Sequence record: NC_001332.1
DNA length: 6,744 nucleotides
Reading direction: 5' to 3' (one strand)
From: Lineavirus I22
Shown: piece by piece, positions 987 to 6,744 of the stretch
How positions within the stretch are numbered: position 1 is the stretch's first letter
Layout: each line of letters starts with the position of its first letter
The notes under the pieces: model-generated
What the model was told of the DNA's origin: nothing
Seen by the model: only the letters and a program-made list of their open reading frames with translations
Database searches by the model: none
Program-made: the position numbers and the translations under genes

Positions 987-2273
987 ATGAAAACTTTTTT
1001 TGCTAAATTCATCGTCGCTTTATTTGCTTTTACTTATTTCTCTGCATTCGCGGAGCCTGTTACTTTAAACAATTCTCCTGTGCGCTCATTCGTTCAATGG
1101 TATTCATCCAAAACAGGAAAATCAGTTATTGTTAACCCTGATGTTAAGGGGAATATCACCGTATTTAATGCTGATGTTAACAACGCAAATATTGATGACT
1201 TTTTTAAGTCTGTCCTTAATGCTAACGGCCTTGTAGTTGTCGCTGGTAATCCTGCCGTTGTTTCCACACCTTTAACTAAGCTCGCGTCGCAGCCGTCAAA
1301 TGAAGAAACCTATGATGATGAAAGTGACGGCGTAGCGTATGAGGCAGTACCGCAGTCGGCTGCGCCTGCTGTACCTGCCGATCTCACGGTACGTAATTTC
1401 AACGTGACGCGCGTTCGTTCTTCTGACGTTCTGCCGCTGGCTAAGATTTTCGTTGATTCAAATGGCGGCGGTAATGTCGTCGATTACCCAGGCAATAACA
1501 GTCTTGTTGTTTCCGGCTCAGCTCAGGTTATGCCTGCTTTATCCGATTTCATTACGTCAATTGATGTTGCCCGCGAACAGGTTCTGATTCAGTCCCTGAT
1601 GTTTGAAACCAGTGTTTCTAATGGCGTGGATCTTTCTTTTGCGCTGGCTCTAGCTTCTGGCGGTAAAGTTGCAGGCGGTTTTAATACCTCAGCTCTCGGC
1701 ACTGCTCTTTCTACTGCTGGCGGTAGCTTCGGTATCTTTAACGGTAACATTCTGGCGTTATCTCTCCAGGCTGTTCAGAGTGATTCTAACTCTAAGGTTA
1801 TCTCTACCCCTCGCATCCTCACGCAGTCCGGCCAGAGTGGTTATATTTCAGTTGGCCAGAATGTTCCTTTTGTGACAGGTAAAGTCACTGGCGAGGCTGC
1901 AAGCGTTAATAATCCTTTCCAGACAATCGAGCGCCGCGACGTAGGCGTATCACTAAAGGTAACGCCGGTTGTTATGGGAAATGGTCAGTTAGTTCTCACC
2001 ATCGATACTAAAGCCGACTCTCTCAGCAATCAGGCGATTGCCTCTGACATCATTACCAATCAGCGCCAGATACAAACCACCGTTCAGATTAAAGACGGTC
2101 AGACCCTGCTTTTAGGCGGCCTGATTAGCTCTAACCAGTTCGACAGCGATCGTTCTGTGCCTTTTATGTCGAAGATTCCTTTAATCGGCTGGCTTTTCCG
2201 CAGCCATTCAGACTCGAAAGATGATCGCACTATGTTCGTTTTGCTTACTGCTCACGTTATCAGGGCGCTTTGA
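987..2273 (+). CDS. IV: pIV secretin (outer-membrane phage export channel)
   Basis: 428 aa. Signal peptide MKTFFAKFIVALFAFTYFSAFA then EPV. Long collinear stretches match Ff pIV as recalled (SVIVNPDVKG, AGGSFGIFNG, SKVISTPRILTQSGQSGYISVGQNVPFVTGKVTGEAASVNNPFQTIERRDVG, QTLLLGGL, VPFMSKIPLIGWLF). SD GAAGG at 976-980, 6 nt before the ATG. Confidence 0.95.
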   Translation: MKTFFAKFIVALFAFTYFSAFAEPVTLNNSPVRSFVQWYSSKTGKSVIVNPDVKGNITVFNADVNNANIDDFFKSVLNANGLVVVAGNPAVVSTPLTKLASQPSNEETYDDESDGVAYEAVPQSAAPAVPADLTVRNFNVTRVRSSDVLPLAKIFVDSNGGGNVVDYPGNNSLVVSGSAQVMPALSDFITSIDVAREQVLIQSLMFETSVSNGVDLSFALALASGGKVAGGFNTSALGTALSTAGGSFGIFNGNILALSLQAVQSDSNSKVISTPRILTQSGQSGYISVGQNVPFVTGKVTGEAASVNNPFQTIERRDVGVSLKVTPVVMGNGQLVLTIDTKADSLSNQAIASDIITNQRQIQTTVQIKDGQTLLLGGLISSNQFDSDRSVPFMSKIPLIGWLFRSHSDSKDDRTMFVLLTAHVIRAL

Positions 2274-2278
2274 GGGTG

Positions 2279-2305
2279 CGGGGTAGGTGCGTTAGCCCTG
2301 CCCCG
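2279..2305 (+). other. GC-rich hairpin just after the gene IV stop; candidate packaging (morphogenetic) signal or part of it
   Basis: 5' arm CGGGGTAGG (2279-2287) pairs with 3' arm CCTGCCCCG (2297-2305): 9 bp including one G-T wobble, 9-nt loop. No T-run follows, so not a classic intrinsic terminator. In Ff the packaging hairpin sits at this position. Confidence 0.4.
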
Positions 2306-2353
2306 TATCCTCACAGCGTCCCCTGACCCGTATCATTCGCTTATCGCCGTATG
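2295..2353 (+). repeat. Iteron-like direct repeats CCCTG(C/A)CCCGTATC with a third partial copy GCCGTATG
   Basis: GCCCTGCCCCGTATCC (2295-2310) and CCCCTGACCCGTATCA (2320-2335) are 25 nt apart with one mismatch in the 14-nt core. CCGTAT recurs at 2347-2352 and ACGTAT at 2380-2385. Confidence 0.4.
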
Positions 2354-2596
2354 TGCTTCCCTGTCTTGTCCCTAAGGCTACGTATTGCCTCCCCGTTTAA
2401 ATCGTCAAGCTATAAATCGTGGGGGCCCCATCGCCCTGTTAAGCTGCCTTTTTTCCTGCGATCCTCCCGCCTCTCTGTTGTCTGACGGTCGCAGACGAAC
2501 AGGACGTTACAGCCATTGTTTTTCGTTCTGCTGGCTTCTTTTTTTGGGGGGTGTACTCTTGTTGCAAAATCGCAACGCAGCGGGGGTTAAATCATG

Positions 2597-2672
2597 CTGC
2601 ACGAAAGTCTCACTTTCGGGATTTTGGTTTTTGGATTTCTGCTGCGGAGTCAGGCGGGGCGGGGTGAACGTG
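2597..2672 (+). other. Nested inverted-repeat structure in a G-tract-rich segment; candidate ssDNA origin element (minus-strand priming site)
   Basis: CTGCACG (2597-2603) is complementary to CGTGCAG (2666-2672). Inner hairpin CGAAAGT-ctc-ACTTTCG (2602-2618). G-tracts at 2545-2550, 2582-2586 and 2655-2664. Functional assignment is inference. Confidence 0.3.
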
Positions 2673-2743
2673 CAGTGTATGTAATACTGCAACGTTTGTC
2701 TCAATCTGATACCTCTCTACTAAACGCCTCCTTTCTTTTTAAG

Positions 2744-2754
2744 CTCTTTAATCA
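2744..2754 (+). promoter_or_regulatory. Candidate plus-strand origin nick-site core (CTCTTTAATCA)
   Basis: Resembles the Ff pII nicking region TTCTTTAAT^AGTGG as I recall it (9 of 11 identical), in a T-rich context upstream of gene II. Hypothesis only. Confidence 0.25.
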
Positions 2755-3002
2755 TTTTCTTTTCTGCTAATTCTGTATAGTTTTCAATGACATAGTTTAA
2801 GTGAATCTGTCCATGTGACCTGTACGCCCGTACTTGTACTAATCCTGATCGCAGTATCACTCAGGTTTTTCTTTTTCTCGGTGGTGATACTGGCTGTTGT
2901 CCTAACTGGTTTTTTCATTTTATGCCTTTGAAAAATATAAAGTTTCTACCGAAAATAGGTTTTTAAGCGTAATCTTATTGTCAATAGATGTAAAAATTTT
3001 TG

Positions 3003-3030
3003 TTGCGCACGTTATTTTTCACGCTATCAT
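3003..3030 (+). promoter_or_regulatory. Candidate sigma70 promoter for gene II
   Basis: TTGCGC (3003-3008), 16-nt spacer, TATCAT (3025-3030), about 60 nt upstream of the gene II start in an AT-rich region. Imperfect hexamers. Confidence 0.3.
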
Positions 3031-3052
3031 GCCTGCATTGGATTTCATCTTG

Positions 3053-3070
3053 ATACGTGTATACACGTAT
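3053..3070. promoter_or_regulatory. 18-bp perfect palindrome ATACGTGTATACACGTAT in the gene II leader; candidate operator or RNA hairpin
   Basis: Self-complementary by inspection (core ACGTGTATACACGT, 3055-3068). Ends 9 nt before the SD (AGGG, 3080-3083) of gene II. Confidence 0.4.
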
Positions 3071-3090
3071 ACATCACTAAGGGAATGCGT

Positions 3091-4125
3091 ATGATTGATT
3101 GGGTTACAGCCGTCTTGCCTTGTCTGCATGTGCCTGTTGATGCTGGTCGCGTCCTCTCTGTTGCGCCGGATGGCTCTGTAGAATGGGAATCAGTAAAGTT
3201 TTCCCGCGTTACTGGCTCCTTTCAAAGCTCCATCAGTGTACGTTCGCAGGGTTCTGACGGTAATGGGAAAGCCACTCATTTATACGTTGATGGTAACCCG
3301 TCAAAGTGGTTGCAGGGTCATAATATCGTTGGAAGCGACGATCTCAACGGCCTTATGATTGCTTTTTACGCTCGTATGTTGTCACTACTCAATATACCTC
3401 ACCATCTAGAATCGTATCGTCAGGTGCTTTCTGGTCAGTACGAGCTAAAGCGCGTTGACATTAACTACATGTTTGAGCTTCCTACGCTCATTGATGTACG
3501 GTCATGGTTACATGCTGCTGAGTTCAAGGCTAAGACTCGTCACGGGCGCCCGGCAACTGCAAAGGGCACTCTGTACTTTGGTAAAAATTCTCGCCGTTGG
3601 TCTATTAAGGCTTACAGCAAATATGATGAAGTAAATTGCGGGAAAAAAGCTCATGGCGTTCCCGAAGAAATTAAGAAAACTGGCCTTGTTGAATGGTCTA
3701 AAAATAAATTACGTCTAGAATTAACATTACGCGCATTGCAGCTTACTGATATTAATTTAAACTTTGCTAAAAACTGGTCTACTGAAACTGCATATACTGT
3801 TTTTAAAGAATATATGGGGCGTATCGAAATGAGCGGAAATACTTTACTTACTGATACTCAAGTTATTAATTTACCGTCTGCGCTACGTATGACTTATGTG
3901 TGCTGGAAACAGGGCATTTGTGTAACAGATATGGTATCTCGCGCCACTTATTTTCGTCACCGCAAGGTTTTAAAAGAATTTGGTATTGATATTGCTGTTA
4001 CTGTTGATCGTGTTGATAATAGCAACGTTGTTCCGTTAATCCGTGTCTTAGAGGCTAAACCTGCTTCTATTCCTTCTCAATATGATAATTTAATATTTTC
4101 ATCTAATCGTGTATCAAGTTTCTAA
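3091..4125 (+). CDS. II: Gene II protein (rolling-circle replication initiator/nickase), divergent and shorter than Ff pII
   Basis: 344 aa from ATG 3091 (MIDWV..., compare Ff pII MIDMLV...). SD AGGG at 3080-3083 is 7 nt upstream; the ORF-track ATG at 3085 has no spacer. By-eye motif matches to Ff pII: SKWLQGHNIVGSDDL vs AKVLQGHNVFGTTDL, and NVVPLIRV vs NVVPLVRF near the C-terminus. The rest is poorly conserved; Ff pII is about 410 aa. Confidence 0.8.
   Translation: MIDWVTAVLPCLHVPVDAGRVLSVAPDGSVEWESVKFSRVTGSFQSSISVRSQGSDGNGKATHLYVDGNPSKWLQGHNIVGSDDLNGLMIAFYARMLSLLNIPHHLESYRQVLSGQYELKRVDINYMFELPTLIDVRSWLHAAEFKAKTRHGRPATAKGTLYFGKNSRRWSIKAYSKYDEVNCGKKAHGVPEEIKKTGLVEWSKNKLRLELTLRALQLTDINLNFAKNWSTETAYTVFKEYMGRIEMSGNTLLTDTQVINLPSALRMTYVCWKQGICVTDMVSRATYFRHRKVLKEFGIDIAVTVDRVDNSNVVPLIRVLEAKPASIPSQYDNLIFSSNRVSSF
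3829..4125 (+). CDS. X: pX, in-frame internal start within gene II (C-terminal domain product)
   Basis: In-frame ATGs at 3814 and 3829 (YMGRIEMSGN...) align with the Ff pX start (FEGDSMNIYDD). ATG 3829 has GGGG 7-12 nt upstream; 3814 is the alternative. By analogy only. Confidence 0.4.
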   Translation: MSGNTLLTDTQVINLPSALRMTYVCWKQGICVTDMVSRATYFRHRKVLKEFGIDIAVTVDRVDNSNVVPLIRVLEAKPASIPSQYDNLIFSSNRVSSF

Positions 4126-4135
4126 GGGGTTTTAA

Positions 4136-4462
4136 ATGCACTCAGGTATTCTTATTCGTGGTCGTATTCTCGGTTCTCGCACTGCAAACCGTGATAATAA
4201 TTCGCCGCAACATATTTTAGGCGTTGGCATTCAGAAAGCTGACGGTTTTGGCGGTACGACTCAGGATGTTGAGCAGGTTAAAATTCCTGACCAGCTTGTG
4301 CAAAGCGGCGTTGTTAATCAGATTAATTCGCTTATTGGCAAACTTTGCGAAGTACCGATTAATGTTCGTTCTTGGTCTATGAACGGCAAAAACGGCACTT
4401 CTTACACTCTGTCTTTTGAGTCCGGTATTCAGGAGATTGAAGAGCTGATTTATGTCAGATGA
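4136..4462 (+). CDS. Gene-V-position protein, putative ssDNA-binding protein; no recognisable similarity to Ff/IKe pV
   Basis: 108-aa ORF with SD AAGGGG (4124-4129) about 6 nt before the ATG, immediately after gene II and overlapping the gene VII start. Function inferred from synteny only; the sequence does not resemble Ff pV as I recall it. Confidence 0.6.
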   Translation: MHSGILIRGRILGSRTANRDNNSPQHILGVGIQKADGFGGTTQDVEQVKIPDQLVQSGVVNQINSLIGKLCEVPINVRSWSMNGKNGTSYTLSFESGIQEIEELIYVR

Positions 4463-4541
4463 ACTAATTCACGTAGTAATAGCTCTCGGCCTCGTTATTT
4501 CCTTCGGTTTGGGTGCTATTACTGCTGGGGTACTCCGATGA
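4452..4541 (+). CDS. VII: pVII-like minor coat protein
   Basis: 29-aa hydrophobic peptide MSDELIHVVIALGLVISFGLGAITAGVLR, comparable to Ff pVII. Start overlaps the gene V-position ORF stop by 11 nt; stop TGA overlaps the gene IX ATG (ATGA). Confidence 0.6.
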   Translation: MSDELIHVVIALGLVISFGLGAITAGVLR

Positions 4542-4639
4542 TTGACTATGTTGGTTTATTCATTGGCGCTTATATAATGGGCTTCGCCCTTTTCTATGGC
4601 ATAGGATTCTTTAAATCCATTGCTGAACGCATCGTTTAA
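4538..4639 (+). CDS. IX: pIX-like minor coat protein
   Basis: 33-aa hydrophobic peptide MIDYVGLFIGAYIMGFALFYGIGFFKSIAERIV, sitting between VII and VIII as in Ff. GGGG 6-9 nt upstream as SD. Confidence 0.6.
   Translation: MIDYVGLFIGAYIMGFALFYGIGFFKSIAERIV
4551..4578 (+). promoter_or_regulatory. Candidate sigma70 promoter for gene VIII, inside gene IX
   Basis: TTGGTT (4551-4556), 16-nt spacer, perfect TATAAT (4573-4578), about 75 nt upstream of the gene VIII ATG. Ff has a strong gene VIII promoter in the equivalent position. Confidence 0.4.
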
Positions 4640-4652
4640 TTAAGGAATACAC

Positions 4653-4907
4653 ATGAGCGTTATTACTAAAGTTGCTGCTGCTAAAAACAAAATCGTTGTT
4701 GGTGCTGGCCTGCTGATGGCTTCTGCTGGCGCGTTCGCTGCTGATGACGGTACTTCTACCGCTACCAGCTACGCTACTGAAGCAATGAACAGCCTGAAAA
4801 CTCAGGCAACTGATCTCATTGATCAGACGTGGCCTGTTGTAACTAGCGTTGCCGTTGCTGGTCTGGCAATTCGTCTTTTCAAGAAATTCTCTTCTAAAGC
4901 TGTTTAA
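4653..4907 (+). CDS. VIII: pVIII major coat protein precursor
   Basis: 84 aa. Signal peptide ending AFA, then an acidic N-terminus (ADDGTS), hydrophobic core and basic C-terminus. NYATEAM.SLKTQA.DLI.QTWPVV...AGL.IRLFKKFSSKAV is close to IKe/Ff pVIII as recalled. SD TAAGGAA at 4640-4646. Confidence 0.95.
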   Translation: MSVITKVAAAKNKIVVGAGLLMASAGAFAADDGTSTATSYATEAMNSLKTQATDLIDQTWPVVTSVAVAGLAIRLFKKFSSKAV

Positions 4908-4923
4908 TATTCAGCGTTTTCAA

Positions 4924-4949
4924 GGGGCGCTATTGCGCCCTTTTTTTTT
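4924..4949 (+). terminator. Rho-independent terminator after gene VIII
   Basis: GC stem GGGGCGC (4924-4930), loop TATT, GCGCCC (4935-4940), then nine T (4941-4949). Same position as the central terminator of Ff. Confidence 0.85.
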
Positions 4950-4974
4950 ACTTTAATTCAGCTAAGGTGTAATT

Positions 4975-6279
4975 GTGAAAAGAAAAATAATAGCAATTTC
5001 TTTATTTTTATACATCCCTTTGTCTAATGCTGATAATTGGGAGTCTATTACTAAAAGCTATTATACTGGCTTTGCCATGTCTAAAACTGTTGAATCAAAA
5101 GATCAGGATGGTAAAACAGTTCGTAAAGAGGTTATAACTCAGGCTGATTTAACTACCGCCTGTAATGATGCTAAAGCCTCCGCGCAAGATGTTTTTAATC
5201 AAATGAAGCTAACATTTTCTGGTATATGGCCTGATTCTCAGTTTCGCCTTGTAACTGGTGATACCTGCGTTTATAACGGTTCGCCTAGTGAAAAAACTGA
5301 AAGTTGGTCTATTCGCGCTCAGGTTGAGGGTGATATGCAACGTTCTGTACCAGATGAAGAACCTTCTGAACAAACGCCAGAAGAAATCTGTGAAGCAAAA
5401 CCTCCTATTGATGGCGTCTTTAATAACGTCTCTAAGGGTGACGAAGGAGGCTTTTATATTAATTATAATGGCTGCGAATATGAGGCAACTGGCGTCACTG
5501 TTTGCCAGAATGATGGAACTGTCTGTGCCTCCTCCGCTTGGAAGCCAACTGGTTACGTTCCCGAATCTGGAGAATCTTCCTCCTCTCCTGTGAAAGATGG
5601 TGACACTGGCGGTACTGGTGAAGGTGGTTCTGATACTGGCGGTGATACTGGTGGCGGTGATACTGGTGGTGGTTCTACTGGCGGCGATACTGGCGGTTCT
5701 ACTGGTGGCGGTTCTACTGGTGGCGGTTCTACTGGTGGATCAACTGGTAAATCACTGACAAAGGAAGATGTAACCGCAGCAATACATGATGCTTCCCCTT
5801 CTATTGGTGATGCTGTTAAAGATTCCCTTACAGAAGATAATGACCAGAACGACAATCAGAAGAAAGCAGATGAACAATCAGCTAAAGCCTCTGCTTCTGT
5901 ATCTGATGCTATCTCTGATGGTATGCGTGGCGTTGGTAATTTCGTTGACGATCTTGGCGGTGAGTCGTCGCAATACGGAATCGGTAATTCTGAAATGGAT
6001 CTCTCCGTTAGCCTGGCTAAAGGGCAACTTGGAATTGATCTTGAAGGTCATGGTTCAGCTTGGGAATCCTTTTTAAATGACGGTGCTTTACGTCCCTCCA
6101 TTCCTTCTGGTCATGGCTGTACTGATTTTGTCATGTTTCAGGGTTCTGTTTATCAGCTTGATATTGGCTGCGATAAATTAGGCGATATTAAGTCTGTATT
6201 ATCTTGGGTTATGTATTGCCTTACCTTCTGGTATGTATTCCAGTCTGCTACTTCATTACTTCGTAAAGGTGAACAATAA
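4975..6279 (+). CDS. III: pIII minor coat / adsorption protein
   Basis: 434 aa with GTG start (Ff gene III also starts with GTG). Signal peptide [19 protein letters not shown], Cys-containing N-terminal receptor-binding domains, Gly/Ser/Thr/Asp-rich linker, hydrophobic C-terminal anchor ([15 protein letters not shown]). Stop TAA overlaps the gene VI ATG (TAATG). Confidence 0.9.
5599..5748 (+). repeat. Imperfect tandem 15-nt repeats encoding the glycine-rich pIII linker
   Basis: Repeated GGTGGCGGTTCTACT-like units encoding [50 protein letters not shown]. Confidence 0.85.
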
Positions 6280-6629
6280 TGCCAGCTTTATTAGGTATTC
6301 CGGCTTTAATTCGTTTCATAATGGGGCTTGTGCCTCTTGCTATTGGTTATTTTGCTAAGTTCTTAGGCAAAATTATTACCCGTAATGGCTTGATGGCTGC
6401 TGCCTTGATTGGTGCGATCCTTTCATTTGTCACCTTTGCAATTCAGCTTTTAGGCGATGCTTTATCTTCTGCAATGGGCGGAATGCCTGCTGATTTTGGA
6501 AATTTAATGTCCTCTGTATTACCTGATGGTACAACAACTTGTATTACAGTAATTATAGACTACCAGATAGCGGTCTTTGTTTTCGATATTAAAGATCGCT
6601 TACTCGGCATTGCCAATAAGGTAATTTGA
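6279..6629 (+). CDS. VI: pVI minor coat protein
   Basis: 116-aa hydrophobic protein. N-terminus [13 protein letters not shown] matches Ff pVI MPVLLGIPLLLRF; C-terminal [11 protein letters not shown] matches AAIFIFDVKQK. Confidence 0.9.
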
Positions 6630-6630
6630 T

Positions 6631-6744
6631 ATGGCTGTTTATGTTGTTACCGGAAAATTAGGCGCAGGCAAGACGCTTGTAGCTGTATCGCGTATACAAA
6701 GGACTTTAGCTAAAGGTGGTATTGTTGCCACCAATCTAAATTTA
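6631..6744 (+). CDS. I: Gene I protein (pI), N-terminal 38 codons; continues at window position 1
   Basis: MAVYVVTGKLGAGKTLVAVSRIQ... contains the Walker A P-loop GKLGAGKT and matches the Ff pI N-terminus (MAVYFVTGKLGSGKTLVSV). Frame (6631+114=6745) joins frame 1 of the window start exactly. Confidence 0.9.
   Translation, partial: MAVYVVTGKLGAGKTLVAVSRIQRTLAKGGIVATNLNL

What the first reader, a model, noticed from the sequence alone, without database searches (positions are those of the whole stretch)
2274..4462. Replication module (origin region, gene II/X, gene-V-position ORF) diverges sharply from an otherwise IKe/Ff-like genome
Genes VII through IV show long near-collinear protein matches to Ff/IKe, while the segment from just after gene IV to the gene V/VII junction does not. 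The intergenic region is about 300 nt longer than in Ff. The gene II product is about 65 residues shorter and keeps only a few motif islands (WLQGHNIVG, NVVPL). The gene-V-position ORF is unrecognisable. This is the pattern expected if a filamentous phage swapped its rolling-circle replication cassette for one of another origin, possibly plasmid-derived. The donor replicon and the exact recombination junctions are the open questions.
Basis: partly seen in the sequence, partly recalled or inferred. Interest (0 to 1): 0.8.

Follow-up and report, generated by a model that had tools for sequence, protein, structure and literature searches.

The report
Swapped replication cassette of phage I2-2
The window is the complete genome of filamentous phage I2-2, whose replication genes were reported as a swapped-in foreign module in 1992; the new part here is that the donor looks like another filamentous phage rather than a plasmid, that both junctions are mapped, and that the new origin is located.

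Summary
The window is phage I2-2: it is 6744 nt and its gene V product is an exact match to P15417. I2-2's module exchange is the subject of Stassen et al. 1992.

Identity to IKe is mostly 57-99% around the circle and drops to background between about 2300 and 4500.

- IKe-type sequence does not stop after gene IV. It continues, degraded, through the packaging hairpin, a minus-strand origin with a 76-nt deletion, and a dead half of the IKe plus-origin (2551-2576).
- The foreign cassette is about 2598-4454. It ends at the gene VII ATG.
- pII is a full-length II/X-family Rep with the conserved Tyr and the gene X Met. pV belongs to PF17426, although it is unrelated to Ff/IKe pV.

The nearest relatives of the cassette (84% nt) sit in an inovirus with an unrelated morphogenesis module. 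All relatives with 47-96% pII identity are inoviruses, and the enterobacterial ones (56% and above) also carry gene V. True small plasmids reach only 36-41% and lack gene V.

A hairpin at 2670-2692 followed by an inverted repeat co-occurs with this Rep in 32 of 32 viral contigs and mirrors the Ff/IKe origin core. The predicted nick is TATGT|AATA.

Donor: phage, not plasmid. Novelty: low.

The parts
2274..2310 (+). Packaging-signal/terminator hairpin, IKe-type. It belongs to the retained, old part of the intergenic region.
   Evidence: Folds at -12.2 kcal/mol, z = -4.5. It differs by 1 substitution from the IKe sequence annotated 'morphogenetic signal' at 6141-6196.
2400..2444 (+). Remnant of the Ff/IKe-type minus-strand origin, with a ~76-nt internal deletion at 2427|2428 that removes the hairpin B/C region.
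   Evidence: Alignment with Kp4, L007, IKe, M13 and ColpVC. The remnant has no stable fold, z = +0.6.
2551..2576 (+). Relic 3' half of an IKe-type plus-strand origin (GTGTACTCTTGTTGCAAAATCGCAAC). The nick hairpin's 5' arm and TTTAATA loop are gone.
   Evidence: One mismatch to IKe GTGGACTCTTGTTGC at 6573. The nick motif TTTAATAGTGGAC is absent from the window.
2577..2597 (.). Left junction interval between IKe-type sequence and the acquired cassette.
   Evidence: pZ0117/L008 similarity starts at 2598. The last IKe-type element ends at 2576. The same cassette edge (TGCACGAAAGTCTCAC) is seen in window, Kp4 and L007.
2598..4454 (+). Acquired replication cassette as a whole.
   Evidence: 84.4% nt identity to E. 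coli pZ0117EC0117-1, and collinear with L008 over the same interval (75.8% nt under the permissive scoring). Their morphogenesis genes are unrelated to the window's.
2601..2618 (+). Upstream 'half-origin' box (ACGAAAGTCTCAC, in a small hairpin) containing the GTCTCA half-site.
   Evidence: Conserved in window, Kp4, L007, pZ and L008. Hairpin predicted. Function is inferred only.
2670..2692 (+). Candidate plus-strand origin nick hairpin, GTGCAGT-GTATGTAAT-ACTGCA(A). The predicted nick is between T2682 and A2683.
   Evidence: Fold z = -3.1. Invariant stem in 9 elements. Present in 32 of 32 IMG/VR contigs that encode this Rep, on the same strand, 395-672 nt upstream (one at 1417). Different but complementary stems in L009 and Moraxella pTA144. 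Aligns with the IKe nick hairpin.
2693..2712 (+). Imperfect inverted repeat GTCTCA-ATC-TGATAC after the hairpin, the analogue of Ff hairpin E (pII-binding site).
   Evidence: Perfect inverted repeats sit at the same place in Ec9.5 (GTCTCA..TGAGAC) and Sal7.9 (GTACCA..TGGTAC). M13 has GTTCCA..TGGAAC and IKe has GTTGCA..TGCAAC.
2720..2918 (-). Small divergent ORF (65-66 aa in relatives), split in the window by one extra base at about 2801 into frames 2918..2784 and 2860..2720. Candidate regulator.
   Evidence: Intact in Kp4 and pZ and in 25 of the 27 variants found, all 65 aa; two are shorter. phrog_2503 at 3e-15. No Pfam, NCBIfam or PDB match.
3003..3072 (+). Gene II control region. It holds a conserved block with a promoter-like TTGCGC-16-TATCAT, then GTATAC repeats including the perfect palindrome ACGTGTATACACGT (3055-3068).
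   Evidence: Conservation across window, Kp4, L007, pZ and L008. The repeats change in concert to GCATGC in Kp4. The consensus scan found no significant promoter. Function is inferred.
3085..4125 (+). Gene II: short-form II/X-family rolling-circle initiator (346 aa; 344 aa if it starts at MIDW).
   Evidence: PF05144 5e-78, PF05155 2e-20, TIGR01629 4e-120, phrog_702 1e-94. Tyr177 aligns with M13 Tyr197 and is invariant in 12 sequences.
3829..4125 (+). Gene X (in-frame restart at Met249; 98 aa).
   Evidence: Met249 aligns with the gene X initiator Met of M13 and IKe. phrog_17464 covers residues 249-345. GGGG lies 11-14 nt upstream.
4136..4462 (+). Gene V: PF17426-type putative ssDNA-binding protein. 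It is 108 aa here and 103 aa in all close relatives, because of one extra base at about 4439.
   Evidence: PF17426 4e-25. Exact match to P15417 G5P_BPI22; six of the other seven cluster members are 103 aa and one is 87 aa. Alignment.
4452..4457 (.). Right junction, at the start codon of gene VII.
   Evidence: pZ0117 similarity ends at the ATG (4452-4454). IKe similarity begins at 4458.

Best explanation
The window is phage I2-2.

An IKe-like ancestor kept its morphogenesis genes, its packaging hairpin and its Ff-type minus-strand origin. Everything from inside its plus-strand origin to the gene V/VII boundary was replaced by a self-contained replication cassette, now about 2598-4454. The cassette is of a type that circulates among enterobacterial filamentous phages.

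The cassette carries:
- its own origin core (nick hairpin 2670-2692 plus inverted repeat 2693-2712);
- a small divergent ORF, broken in this sequence;
- gene II/X, a short II/X-family initiator;
- a PF17426-type gene V.

Inferred mechanism, by homology with Ff. pII binds the GTCTCA-type repeat and nicks the hairpin loop at TATGT|AATA, using Tyr177. This primes rolling-circle synthesis. pX and pV then shift replication towards single strands. pV coats the plus strand, and the IKe-type packaging hairpin hands it to the IKe-like assembly machinery.

The dead half of the old IKe-type origin (2551-2576) is the scar of the replacement. It is also part of the reason the intergenic region is long.

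Shown here: the mosaic, the junctions, family membership, and the co-occurrence of hairpin and Rep.
Inferred only: the nick position, the binding site, the roles of pV and the small ORF, and the direction of transfer.
For: Identity:
- The gene V product is exactly P15417 (phage I2-2), found on a 6744-nt contig.
- L006 from IMG/VR is identical to the window.
- I2-2 is 6744 nt (PMC2266997).

Mosaic.

Donor type:
- pZ0117EC0117-1 is a tandem dimer of a ~7.1 kb inovirus with DUF2523, Zot and GspD genes. It shares 2598-4454 at 84% nt and nothing else.
- L008 shows the same pattern.
- All relatives with 47-96% pII identity are inoviruses, and the enterobacterial ones (56% and above) also carry gene V and a divergent regulator.
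- True plasmids reach only 36-41% and lack gene V.

Mobility: both backbones are intermixed in the pII tree. A-backbone monophyly has 8/200 bootstrap support.

Scar: the IKe-type origin half, the Ff-type minus origin and the packaging hairpin all lie left of the cassette in window and Kp4. They are absent from pZ-type and UPphi-like phages.

Origin:
- 32 of 32 co-occurrence with the Rep, on the same strand.
- Conserved down to plasmids whose only recognisable replication gene is this Rep, with compensatory stems.
- Same architecture as the IKe and M13 core.

Rep: full-length family matches, an invariant Tyr, and a conserved gene X Met.
Against: - No experiment supports any step.
- The hairpin also occurs at 90-100% identity in tiny plasmids whose Reps are unrelated: Rep_1 and REP_ORF2-G2P. 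It is therefore not strictly Rep-specific and could be part of a shuffled non-coding block.
- Direction is not settled. UPphi-like phages on an IKe-like backbone carry the same cassette type, with divergence similar to their structural genes (pII 56%, pI 65%, pIV 73%). The pII tree does not polarise the transfer.
- In the window itself the hairpin's 3' arm has an extra A, the small ORF is frameshifted, and the minus-strand origin is deleted.
- pV's fold and DNA binding are unverified. The AF2 model has pLDDT 49.5 and the fold search was empty.
- Composition and codon usage do not mark the cassette as foreign.
Confidence: 0.75

Rival explanations
1. The direct donor was a small rolling-circle plasmid, not a phage. 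From memory, the 1992 paper offered the same suggestion.
For: - Many genuine 1.8-2.8 kb plasmids encode a II/X Rep of the same short form (334-353 aa), at 36-41% identity over 95-99% of the length. That is far closer than IKe pII.
- Several carry the same origin hairpin.
- PMC3399079 reports a Vibrio plasmid Rep 37% identical to the I2-2 protein.
Against: - Every relative above 47% identity sits next to inovirus morphogenesis genes.
- The cassette includes gene V in 31 of 32 contigs and in all close relatives. The plasmids examined have no gene V homologue.
- The junction-to-junction segment is shared at 84% nt with a phage.
Confidence: 0.08
2. The direction is reversed. The I2-2-type cassette is ancestral to the IKe-like backbone, as in UPphi-like phages. 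On this view IKe replaced its cassette with an Ff-type one, and pZ0117-type phages later borrowed the I2-2 cassette.
For: - UPphi-like elements (L011 and 17 further viral contigs) combine an IKe-like backbone with this cassette type. Their divergence is congruent across genes: pII 56%, pV 40%, pI 65%, pIV 73%.
- pZ0117 nests among A-backbone sequences in the pII tree.
Against: - Window and Kp4 carry a dead half of an IKe-type plus origin, and an Ff-type minus origin, immediately left of the cassette. UPphi-like and pZ-type phages have neither.
- The pZ-type L008 is basal to the I2-2 subclade in 179 of 200 bootstraps.
- IKe and M13 differ in pII about as much as in their structural proteins: 60% pII per PMC7697814, against about 50% pI between the window and M13. 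That fits vertical descent of the Ff-type cassette in IKe.
Confidence: 0.15
3. There was no exchange. The replication region simply evolved much faster in place.
For: pII remains a collinear, full-length homologue of Ff/IKe pII. Composition does not differ.
Against: - The boundaries are sharp, at most 20 nt and at most 6 nt wide.
- The segment is 84% identical to phages with unrelated backbones.
- pV has no detectable relationship to Ff/IKe pV.
Confidence: 0.01

Closest known systems
Phage I2-2 as described by Stassen et al. 1992 (J Mol Evol 34:141-152; reference confirmed, abstract recalled from memory)
   Same: This is the same genome and the same conclusion. About two-thirds of the genome is IKe-like, and the origins plus replication genes are non-homologous and were exchanged as a module.
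   Different: This analysis adds several points.
- Residual IKe/Ff-type minus-origin sequence and a half plus-origin lie inside the 'non-homologous' region.
- Both junctions are mapped.
- Natural relatives of the cassette are identified, and they are phages.
- A candidate origin is located.
- A broken small ORF is found.
I could not read the paper, so some of this may already be in it.
Ff/IKe replication module (origin hairpins D and E, gene II/X, gene V)
   Same: - Same gene order and same in-frame gene X restart.
- Same Rep family, with the Tyr equivalent to M13 Tyr197.
- Same origin layout: a hairpin with an ..TAATA loop, followed by an inverted repeat.
   Different: - pII is only 20-23% identical, and 64-75 residues shorter because Ff/IKe carry discrete insertions.
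- Repeat half-sites differ: GTCTCA, against GTTCCA (Ff) and GTTGCA (IKe).
- pV belongs to an unrelated sequence family.
- An extra divergent small ORF is present.
UPphi / YpfPhi / CUSPhi-type enterobacterial inoviruses (PMC7307601)
   Same: Same cassette type: II/X Rep at 56-58%, PF17426 pV at about 40%, and the same hairpin. The paper already noted that genes II and V of UPphi901 group with YpfPhi, while its other genes group with I2-2 and IKe.
   Different: These are a different subclade, usually dif-integrating, with extra genes. They have no IKe-type origin relic and no Ff-type minus origin.
Small II/X-family rolling-circle plasmids (e.g. Moraxella pTA144, 1.9 kb; Klebsiella 2.1 kb; Acinetobacter 2.0 kb)
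   Same: Short-form Rep at 36-41% identity. The hairpin plus TTGTCTCAAT-type box lies upstream on the same strand.
   Different: No gene V and no morphogenesis genes. They are much more distant than the phage relatives.

Membership tests
Phage I2-2 (Lineavirus I22) | Sequence identity to the deposited genome and its proteins | tested here: met
   The gene V product is exactly NP_039617.1 / P15417, on a 6744-nt contig. An identical 6744-nt IMG/VR contig exists. The I2-2 genome length is 6744.
II/X family rolling-circle initiators (PF05144 + PF05155, TIGR01629) | Full-length profile match above the curated cut-offs | tested here: met
   262 bits against a cut-off of 21.7; 73.7 against 25; 401 against 29.
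II/X family rolling-circle initiators | Conserved tyrosine at the position of f1 gpII Tyr-197 (its covalent-link role is recalled from memory) | tested here: met
   Window Tyr177 is invariant across 12 phage and plasmid sequences.
II/X family rolling-circle initiators | In-frame internal start giving protein X | tested here: met
   Met249 aligns with the annotated gene X starts of M13 and IKe. phrog_17464 covers residues 249-345. Expression was not tested.
II/X family rolling-circle initiators | Site-specific nicking at the cognate origin | not testable with these tools
   Only a comparative prediction is available (TATGT|AATA, 2682|2683).
Ff/IKe gene V protein family | Detectable sequence or profile similarity to M13/IKe pV | tested here: not met
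   BLASTP E = 0.44. hhalign probability 0.3%. None of 27 family members hits the Ff pV Pfam model.
PF17426 (Putative_G5P) | Profile match above cut-off | tested here: met
   88.6 bits against a cut-off of 25. All 27 representatives match.
ssDNA-binding OB-fold proteins | OB fold and ssDNA binding | tested here: inconclusive
   The single-sequence AF2 model has pLDDT 49.5 with a b1-b2-b3-a-b4-b5 order. Foldseek found nothing. There are only sub-threshold hints: PrgE (0.16), RstB and Phage_ssDNA_bind.
Ff/IKe-type plus-strand origin | Nick hairpin with TTTAATA loop followed by an inverted repeat | tested here: not met
   Only the 3' half survives, at 2551-2576. The nick motif is absent. The cassette's own origin has the same layout but a different sequence.
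Ff-type minus-strand origin | Two adjacent hairpins (B and C) recognised by RNA polymerase | tested here: not met
   About 76 nt are missing relative to Kp4, L007, IKe and M13. The remnant does not fold, z = +0.6.
Autonomous rolling-circle plasmid | Rep plus origins, without virion genes | tested here: not met
   The window encodes a complete set of inovirus coat and assembly genes.

The most novel reading that the evidence does not exclude
The origin region is a shared 'socket' used by unrelated replicons.

Tiny enterobacterial plasmids carry three different rolling-circle Rep families: Rep_1 (ColpVC), II/X, and REP_ORF2-G2P. They all carry, in phage-like orientation, the same block: an Ff-type minus origin, a packaging-signal-like hairpin, and the I2-2-type plus-origin hairpin. 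The ColpVC plasmids add a complete IKe-type nick hairpin.

These plasmids could be natural phagemids or satellites, converted to single strands and packaged by I2-2- or IKe-type helper phages. The same origin-centred recombination could be how the I2-2 cassette swap happened, because the left junction lies inside the old origin and next to a half-origin box.
Probability: 0.3. Interest if true: 0.65.

Novelty: already known. Interest (0 to 1): 0.3.

Why it matters
The headline, that phage I2-2 carries an exchanged replication module, has been in the literature since 1992. It is a textbook example of modular evolution in filamentous phages and offers no surprise.

What this analysis adds may be useful to specialists:
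- The donor class is other inoviruses. The same cassette has hopped repeatedly between two unrelated morphogenesis backbones in Enterobacteriaceae.
- The swap left a recognisable scar, a dead half of the old origin. That scar gives direct evidence for the direction of the exchange.
- It yields a testable origin prediction for a large and little-studied clade of II/X initiators. The clade had 953 proteins at E <= 1e-10 in one search.
- It suggests that the reference I2-2 sequence carries three single-base insertions and one deletion that none of its relatives share. This matters to anyone using that record as a reference.

Tried and rejected
- GC content and codon usage of cassette versus the rest: no difference (41.3% against 43.3%; permutation p = 0.14).
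- Third-position T bias as a marker of phage versus plasmid residence: not discriminating, since the Klebsiella plasmid rep has T3 = 0.51.
The single-sequence model was poor and its fold search meaningless.
- Profile searches of pV and of the small ORF against PDB sequences: nothing significant.
- Small ORF against Pfam and NCBIfam: nothing. My guess that it is a ribbon-helix-helix protein is therefore untested.
I used annotated plasmid records and IMG/VR contigs instead.
- Rfam: only a chance-level hit.
- Promoter and terminator scan of 2200-4560: no excess over shuffles.
- The pII tree to polarise the transfer: unresolved.
- CTTGATA just upstream of gene II, which resembles a Rep_1/phiX174-type nick motif (recalled from memory), was treated as coincidence. 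It is not conserved in the relatives.
- The 1992 paper itself is not held.
Full report
IDENTITY OF THE WINDOW

The window is a complete circular filamentous-phage genome. IMG/VR holds an identical 6744-nt contig. The gene-V-position product is, residue for residue, NP_039617.1 / UniProt P15417, 'DNA-binding protein G5P, Enterobacteria phage I2-2'. I2-2 (NC_001332) is listed at 6744 nt (PMC2266997).

[quoted passage not shown] 1992; reference confirmed in PMC3399079). The paper itself is not held. From memory, its abstract says that a contiguous ~4.6 kb is homologous to IKe and Ff, that the origins and replication genes are not, and that the replication module was probably exchanged, 'e.g.' with a plasmid.

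CHECK OF THE OBSERVATION

- blastn against IKe aligns window 4458-6741 at 88.8% and 1-2312 at 75.5%. Only two faint matches lie in between.
- In 100-nt windows, identity to IKe is 57-99% outside 2301-4500, apart from one 50% and one 52% window. Inside, it is 33-55%, which is the noise level of a forced alignment.
- Proteins against IKe: pI 85%, pIV 76%, pIII 93%, pVI 90%, pVIII 69%. pII is 23% over less than half its length, and pV has no hit.
- The intergenic region is 811 nt, against 505 in M13. pII is 346 aa, against 410 in M13 and 421 in IKe.

WHAT THE SEGMENT CONTAINS

pII is a bona fide II/X-family rolling-circle initiator. It matches PF05144 over 1-231 of 232 positions (5e-78), PF05155 (2e-20), TIGR01629 (4e-120) and phrog_702.

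A 12-sequence alignment is collinear from the N-terminal MID to the C-terminal NV.P motif.
- The tyrosine aligned with M13 Tyr197 is invariant (window Tyr177).
- Window Met249 aligns with the gene X initiator Met of M13 and IKe.
- The 64-75-residue length difference comes from discrete insertions in the Ff/IKe proteins.

The gene V product matches PF17426 (4e-25). It shows no relationship to Ff/IKe pV, even profile against profile (probability 0.3%). Its fold could not be established.

THE INTERGENIC REGION IS COMPOSITE

I aligned the window's intergenic region with those of IKe, M13, a Klebsiella relative (Kp4, NZ_CP132687, 92% identical overall), pZ0117 and a ColpVC plasmid. IKe/Ff-type sequence does not stop after gene IV. 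In order, the region contains:

1. The packaging hairpin at 2274-2310 (fold z = -4.5).
2. The minus-strand-origin motifs at 2400-2444. Here ~76 nt, intact in Kp4, L007, IKe and M13, are missing at 2427|2428. The remnant no longer folds.
3. An IKe-like spacer.
4. The 3' half of the IKe plus-origin, GTGTACTCTTGTTGCAAAATCGCAAC, at 2551-2576. IKe reads GTGGACTCTTGTTGCATTTTGCAAC. The 5' arm and the TTTAATA nick loop are gone.

Similarity to the foreign cassette begins at 2598.

JUNCTIONS

- Left: 2577-2597. The same cassette edge is shared by window, Kp4 and L007.
- Right: pZ0117 similarity ends at the ATG of gene VII (4452-4454), and IKe similarity begins at 4458.

WHERE THE CASSETTE COMES FROM

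The E. coli record pZ0117EC0117-1 is labelled a plasmid. It is actually a tandem dimer of a ~7.1-kb inovirus with DUF2523, Zot and GspD genes. It shares window 2598-4454 at 84% nt (pII 94%, pV 74%) and nothing else. IMG/VR contig L008 behaves the same way.

A protein search of 72,556 plasmid records gives a graded series:
- 94%: pZ0117 and Kp4.
- 56-58%: 8-9.5-kb enterobacterial inovirus episomes, on both an IKe-like backbone and a DUF2523/GspD backbone.
- about 47%: Pseudomonas records, of which the one inspected is an inovirus.
- 36-41%: many genuine 1.8-2.8-kb plasmids, which carry the Rep but no gene V.

In the pII tree the two backbones are intermixed in both subclades. The cassette has therefore moved between backbones repeatedly. 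The proximate donor was a phage.

THE NEW ORIGIN

A hairpin at 2670-2692 (GTGCAGT-GTATGTAAT-ACTGCA) is followed by GTCTCA-ATC-TGATAC. The evidence that this is the cassette's plus-strand origin is as follows.
- It is present in every element that encodes this Rep clade, down to 36% identity, and absent from IKe and M13.
- Scanning IMG/VR for the hairpin returned 32 contigs. All 32 encode the Rep on the same strand. The hairpin lies 395-672 nt upstream (one at 1417), and 31 contigs also have the PF17426 gene V.
- In L009 and in Moraxella pTA144 the stem sequence is entirely different but still complementary. The ..GTAATA loop and the TTGTCTCAATTTGATA box persist.
- The layout mirrors the Ff/IKe core: nick hairpin with a TTTAATA loop, then GTTCCA..TGGAAC or GTTGCA..TGCAAC. 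MAFFT aligned the two on its own.

By homology, the nick is predicted at TATGT|AATA, between T2682 and A2683.

One caveat applies. The hairpin also occurs in tiny plasmids with unrelated Reps.

OTHER CASSETTE FEATURES

A 65-66-aa ORF lies on the opposite strand, at 2720-2918. It is intact in Kp4 and pZ, and 25 of the 27 variants found are full-length at 65 aa. In the window it is split by one extra base. It sits where related phages carry an HTH or RstR-type regulator, but it has no recognisable domain.

The window also has an extra A in the hairpin's 3' arm. A further extra base near the end of gene V lengthens pV from 103 to 108 aa. Each of the three insertions is absent from every relative that could be aligned there, four at the first two sites and three at the gene V site. 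They are either lesions of this isolate or errors in the record.

DIRECTION OF THE SWAP

The scar, a dead IKe-type origin half plus an Ff-type minus origin to the left of the cassette, argues that an IKe-type ancestor acquired the cassette. That scar is absent from pZ-type and UPphi-like phages.

The alternative is that this cassette type is ancestral on the IKe-like backbone and IKe switched. It draws some support from UPphi-like phages, whose divergence is congruent across genes. I give it about 15%.

VERDICT

The 'plasmid' idea is not supported for the direct donor. Interest is low to moderate.

Noticed in passing
window 4900-6100 (gene III): Gene III is 94-99% identical to IKe at the nucleotide level, while the rest of the shared genome is mostly 57-92%. 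The sister phages Kp4 and L007 differ most from the window exactly here (64-97% and 41-84%). This looks like a second, more recent exchange of the receptor-binding gene with an IKe-like phage.
   Followed up: partly
window 2427|2428: About 76 nt of the Ff-type minus-strand origin (the hairpin B/C region) are missing relative to Kp4, L007, IKe and M13, and the remnant does not fold. How this genome primes its complementary strand is unexplained.
   Followed up: partly
window ~2691, ~2801, ~4439: There are three single-base insertions: in the origin hairpin's 3' arm, in the small ORF (a frameshift), and at the gene V 3' end (108 aa instead of 103). Each is absent from every relative aligned at that site. 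They may be errors in the deposited 1992 sequence, or isolate-specific lesions.
   Followed up: partly
L003 (ColpVC, 2137 bp) 1815-2137 and 1-135; L013 (2095 bp); L049 and L050 (1.4-1.5 kb): Tiny enterobacterial plasmids with three different rolling-circle Rep families (Rep_1, II/X, REP_ORF2-G2P) share one block at 80-96% identity. The block holds an Ff-type minus origin, a packaging-signal-like hairpin and the I2-2-type origin hairpin. ColpVC plasmids also have a complete IKe-type nick hairpin. 61 plasmid records carry the block. These may be natural phagemids.
   Followed up: partly
L002 (NZ_CP098188.1, 14367 bp): This record is annotated as an E. coli plasmid. It is a head-to-tail dimer (99.3% self-identity) of a ~7.1 kb inovirus, and one copy has a frameshifted rep. 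Related 7.1-7.3 kb contigs occur in E. coli, Enterobacter, Cronobacter and Citrobacter.
   Followed up: partly
L004 (NZ_CP132687.1, 6814 bp, Klebsiella pneumoniae 'plasmid p4'): This is an I2-2-like phage replicative form, 92% identical to the window overall. It is itself mosaic against the window: 91-100% over 1-2500 and 72-92% over 2600-3600. The distributed gene table lists no gene II (genes that cross the record start are omitted from it).
   Followed up: partly
window 3055-3075: GTATAC repeats, including the perfect palindrome ACGTGTATACACGT, lie just upstream of gene II. In Kp4 they are replaced in concert by GCATGC repeats. This suggests a lineage-specific operator, either for the small ORF product or for pV acting on the mRNA leader.
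   Followed up: no
window 2577-2618: A degenerate second copy of the origin lies ~90 nt upstream of the intact one: hairpin GCAGC..GCTGC, then ACGAAAGTCTCAC. Its 3' part forms the exact left edge of the cassette in all relatives. It could be a relic of origin-mediated recombination.
   Followed up: partly
window 2045-2260 (3' end of gene IV): Seven large Pantoea agglomerans plasmids (86-211 kb) match this stretch at ~80%, under 'hypothetical protein' annotations. They probably carry integrated inovirus remnants.
   Followed up: no
proteins P0027 and P0028 (Klebsiella pneumoniae, 602 aa): Two database proteins combine the II/X Rep domains with a secretin domain (PF00263) in a single ORF. This may be a fusion across a deleted prophage, or an annotation artefact.
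   Followed up: no
window 4903-4987: Weak Rfam match to the fstAT antitoxin sRNA (24.5 bits against a gathering score of 72; E = 0.54), in the gene VIII-III spacer. It is most likely chance.
   Followed up: no
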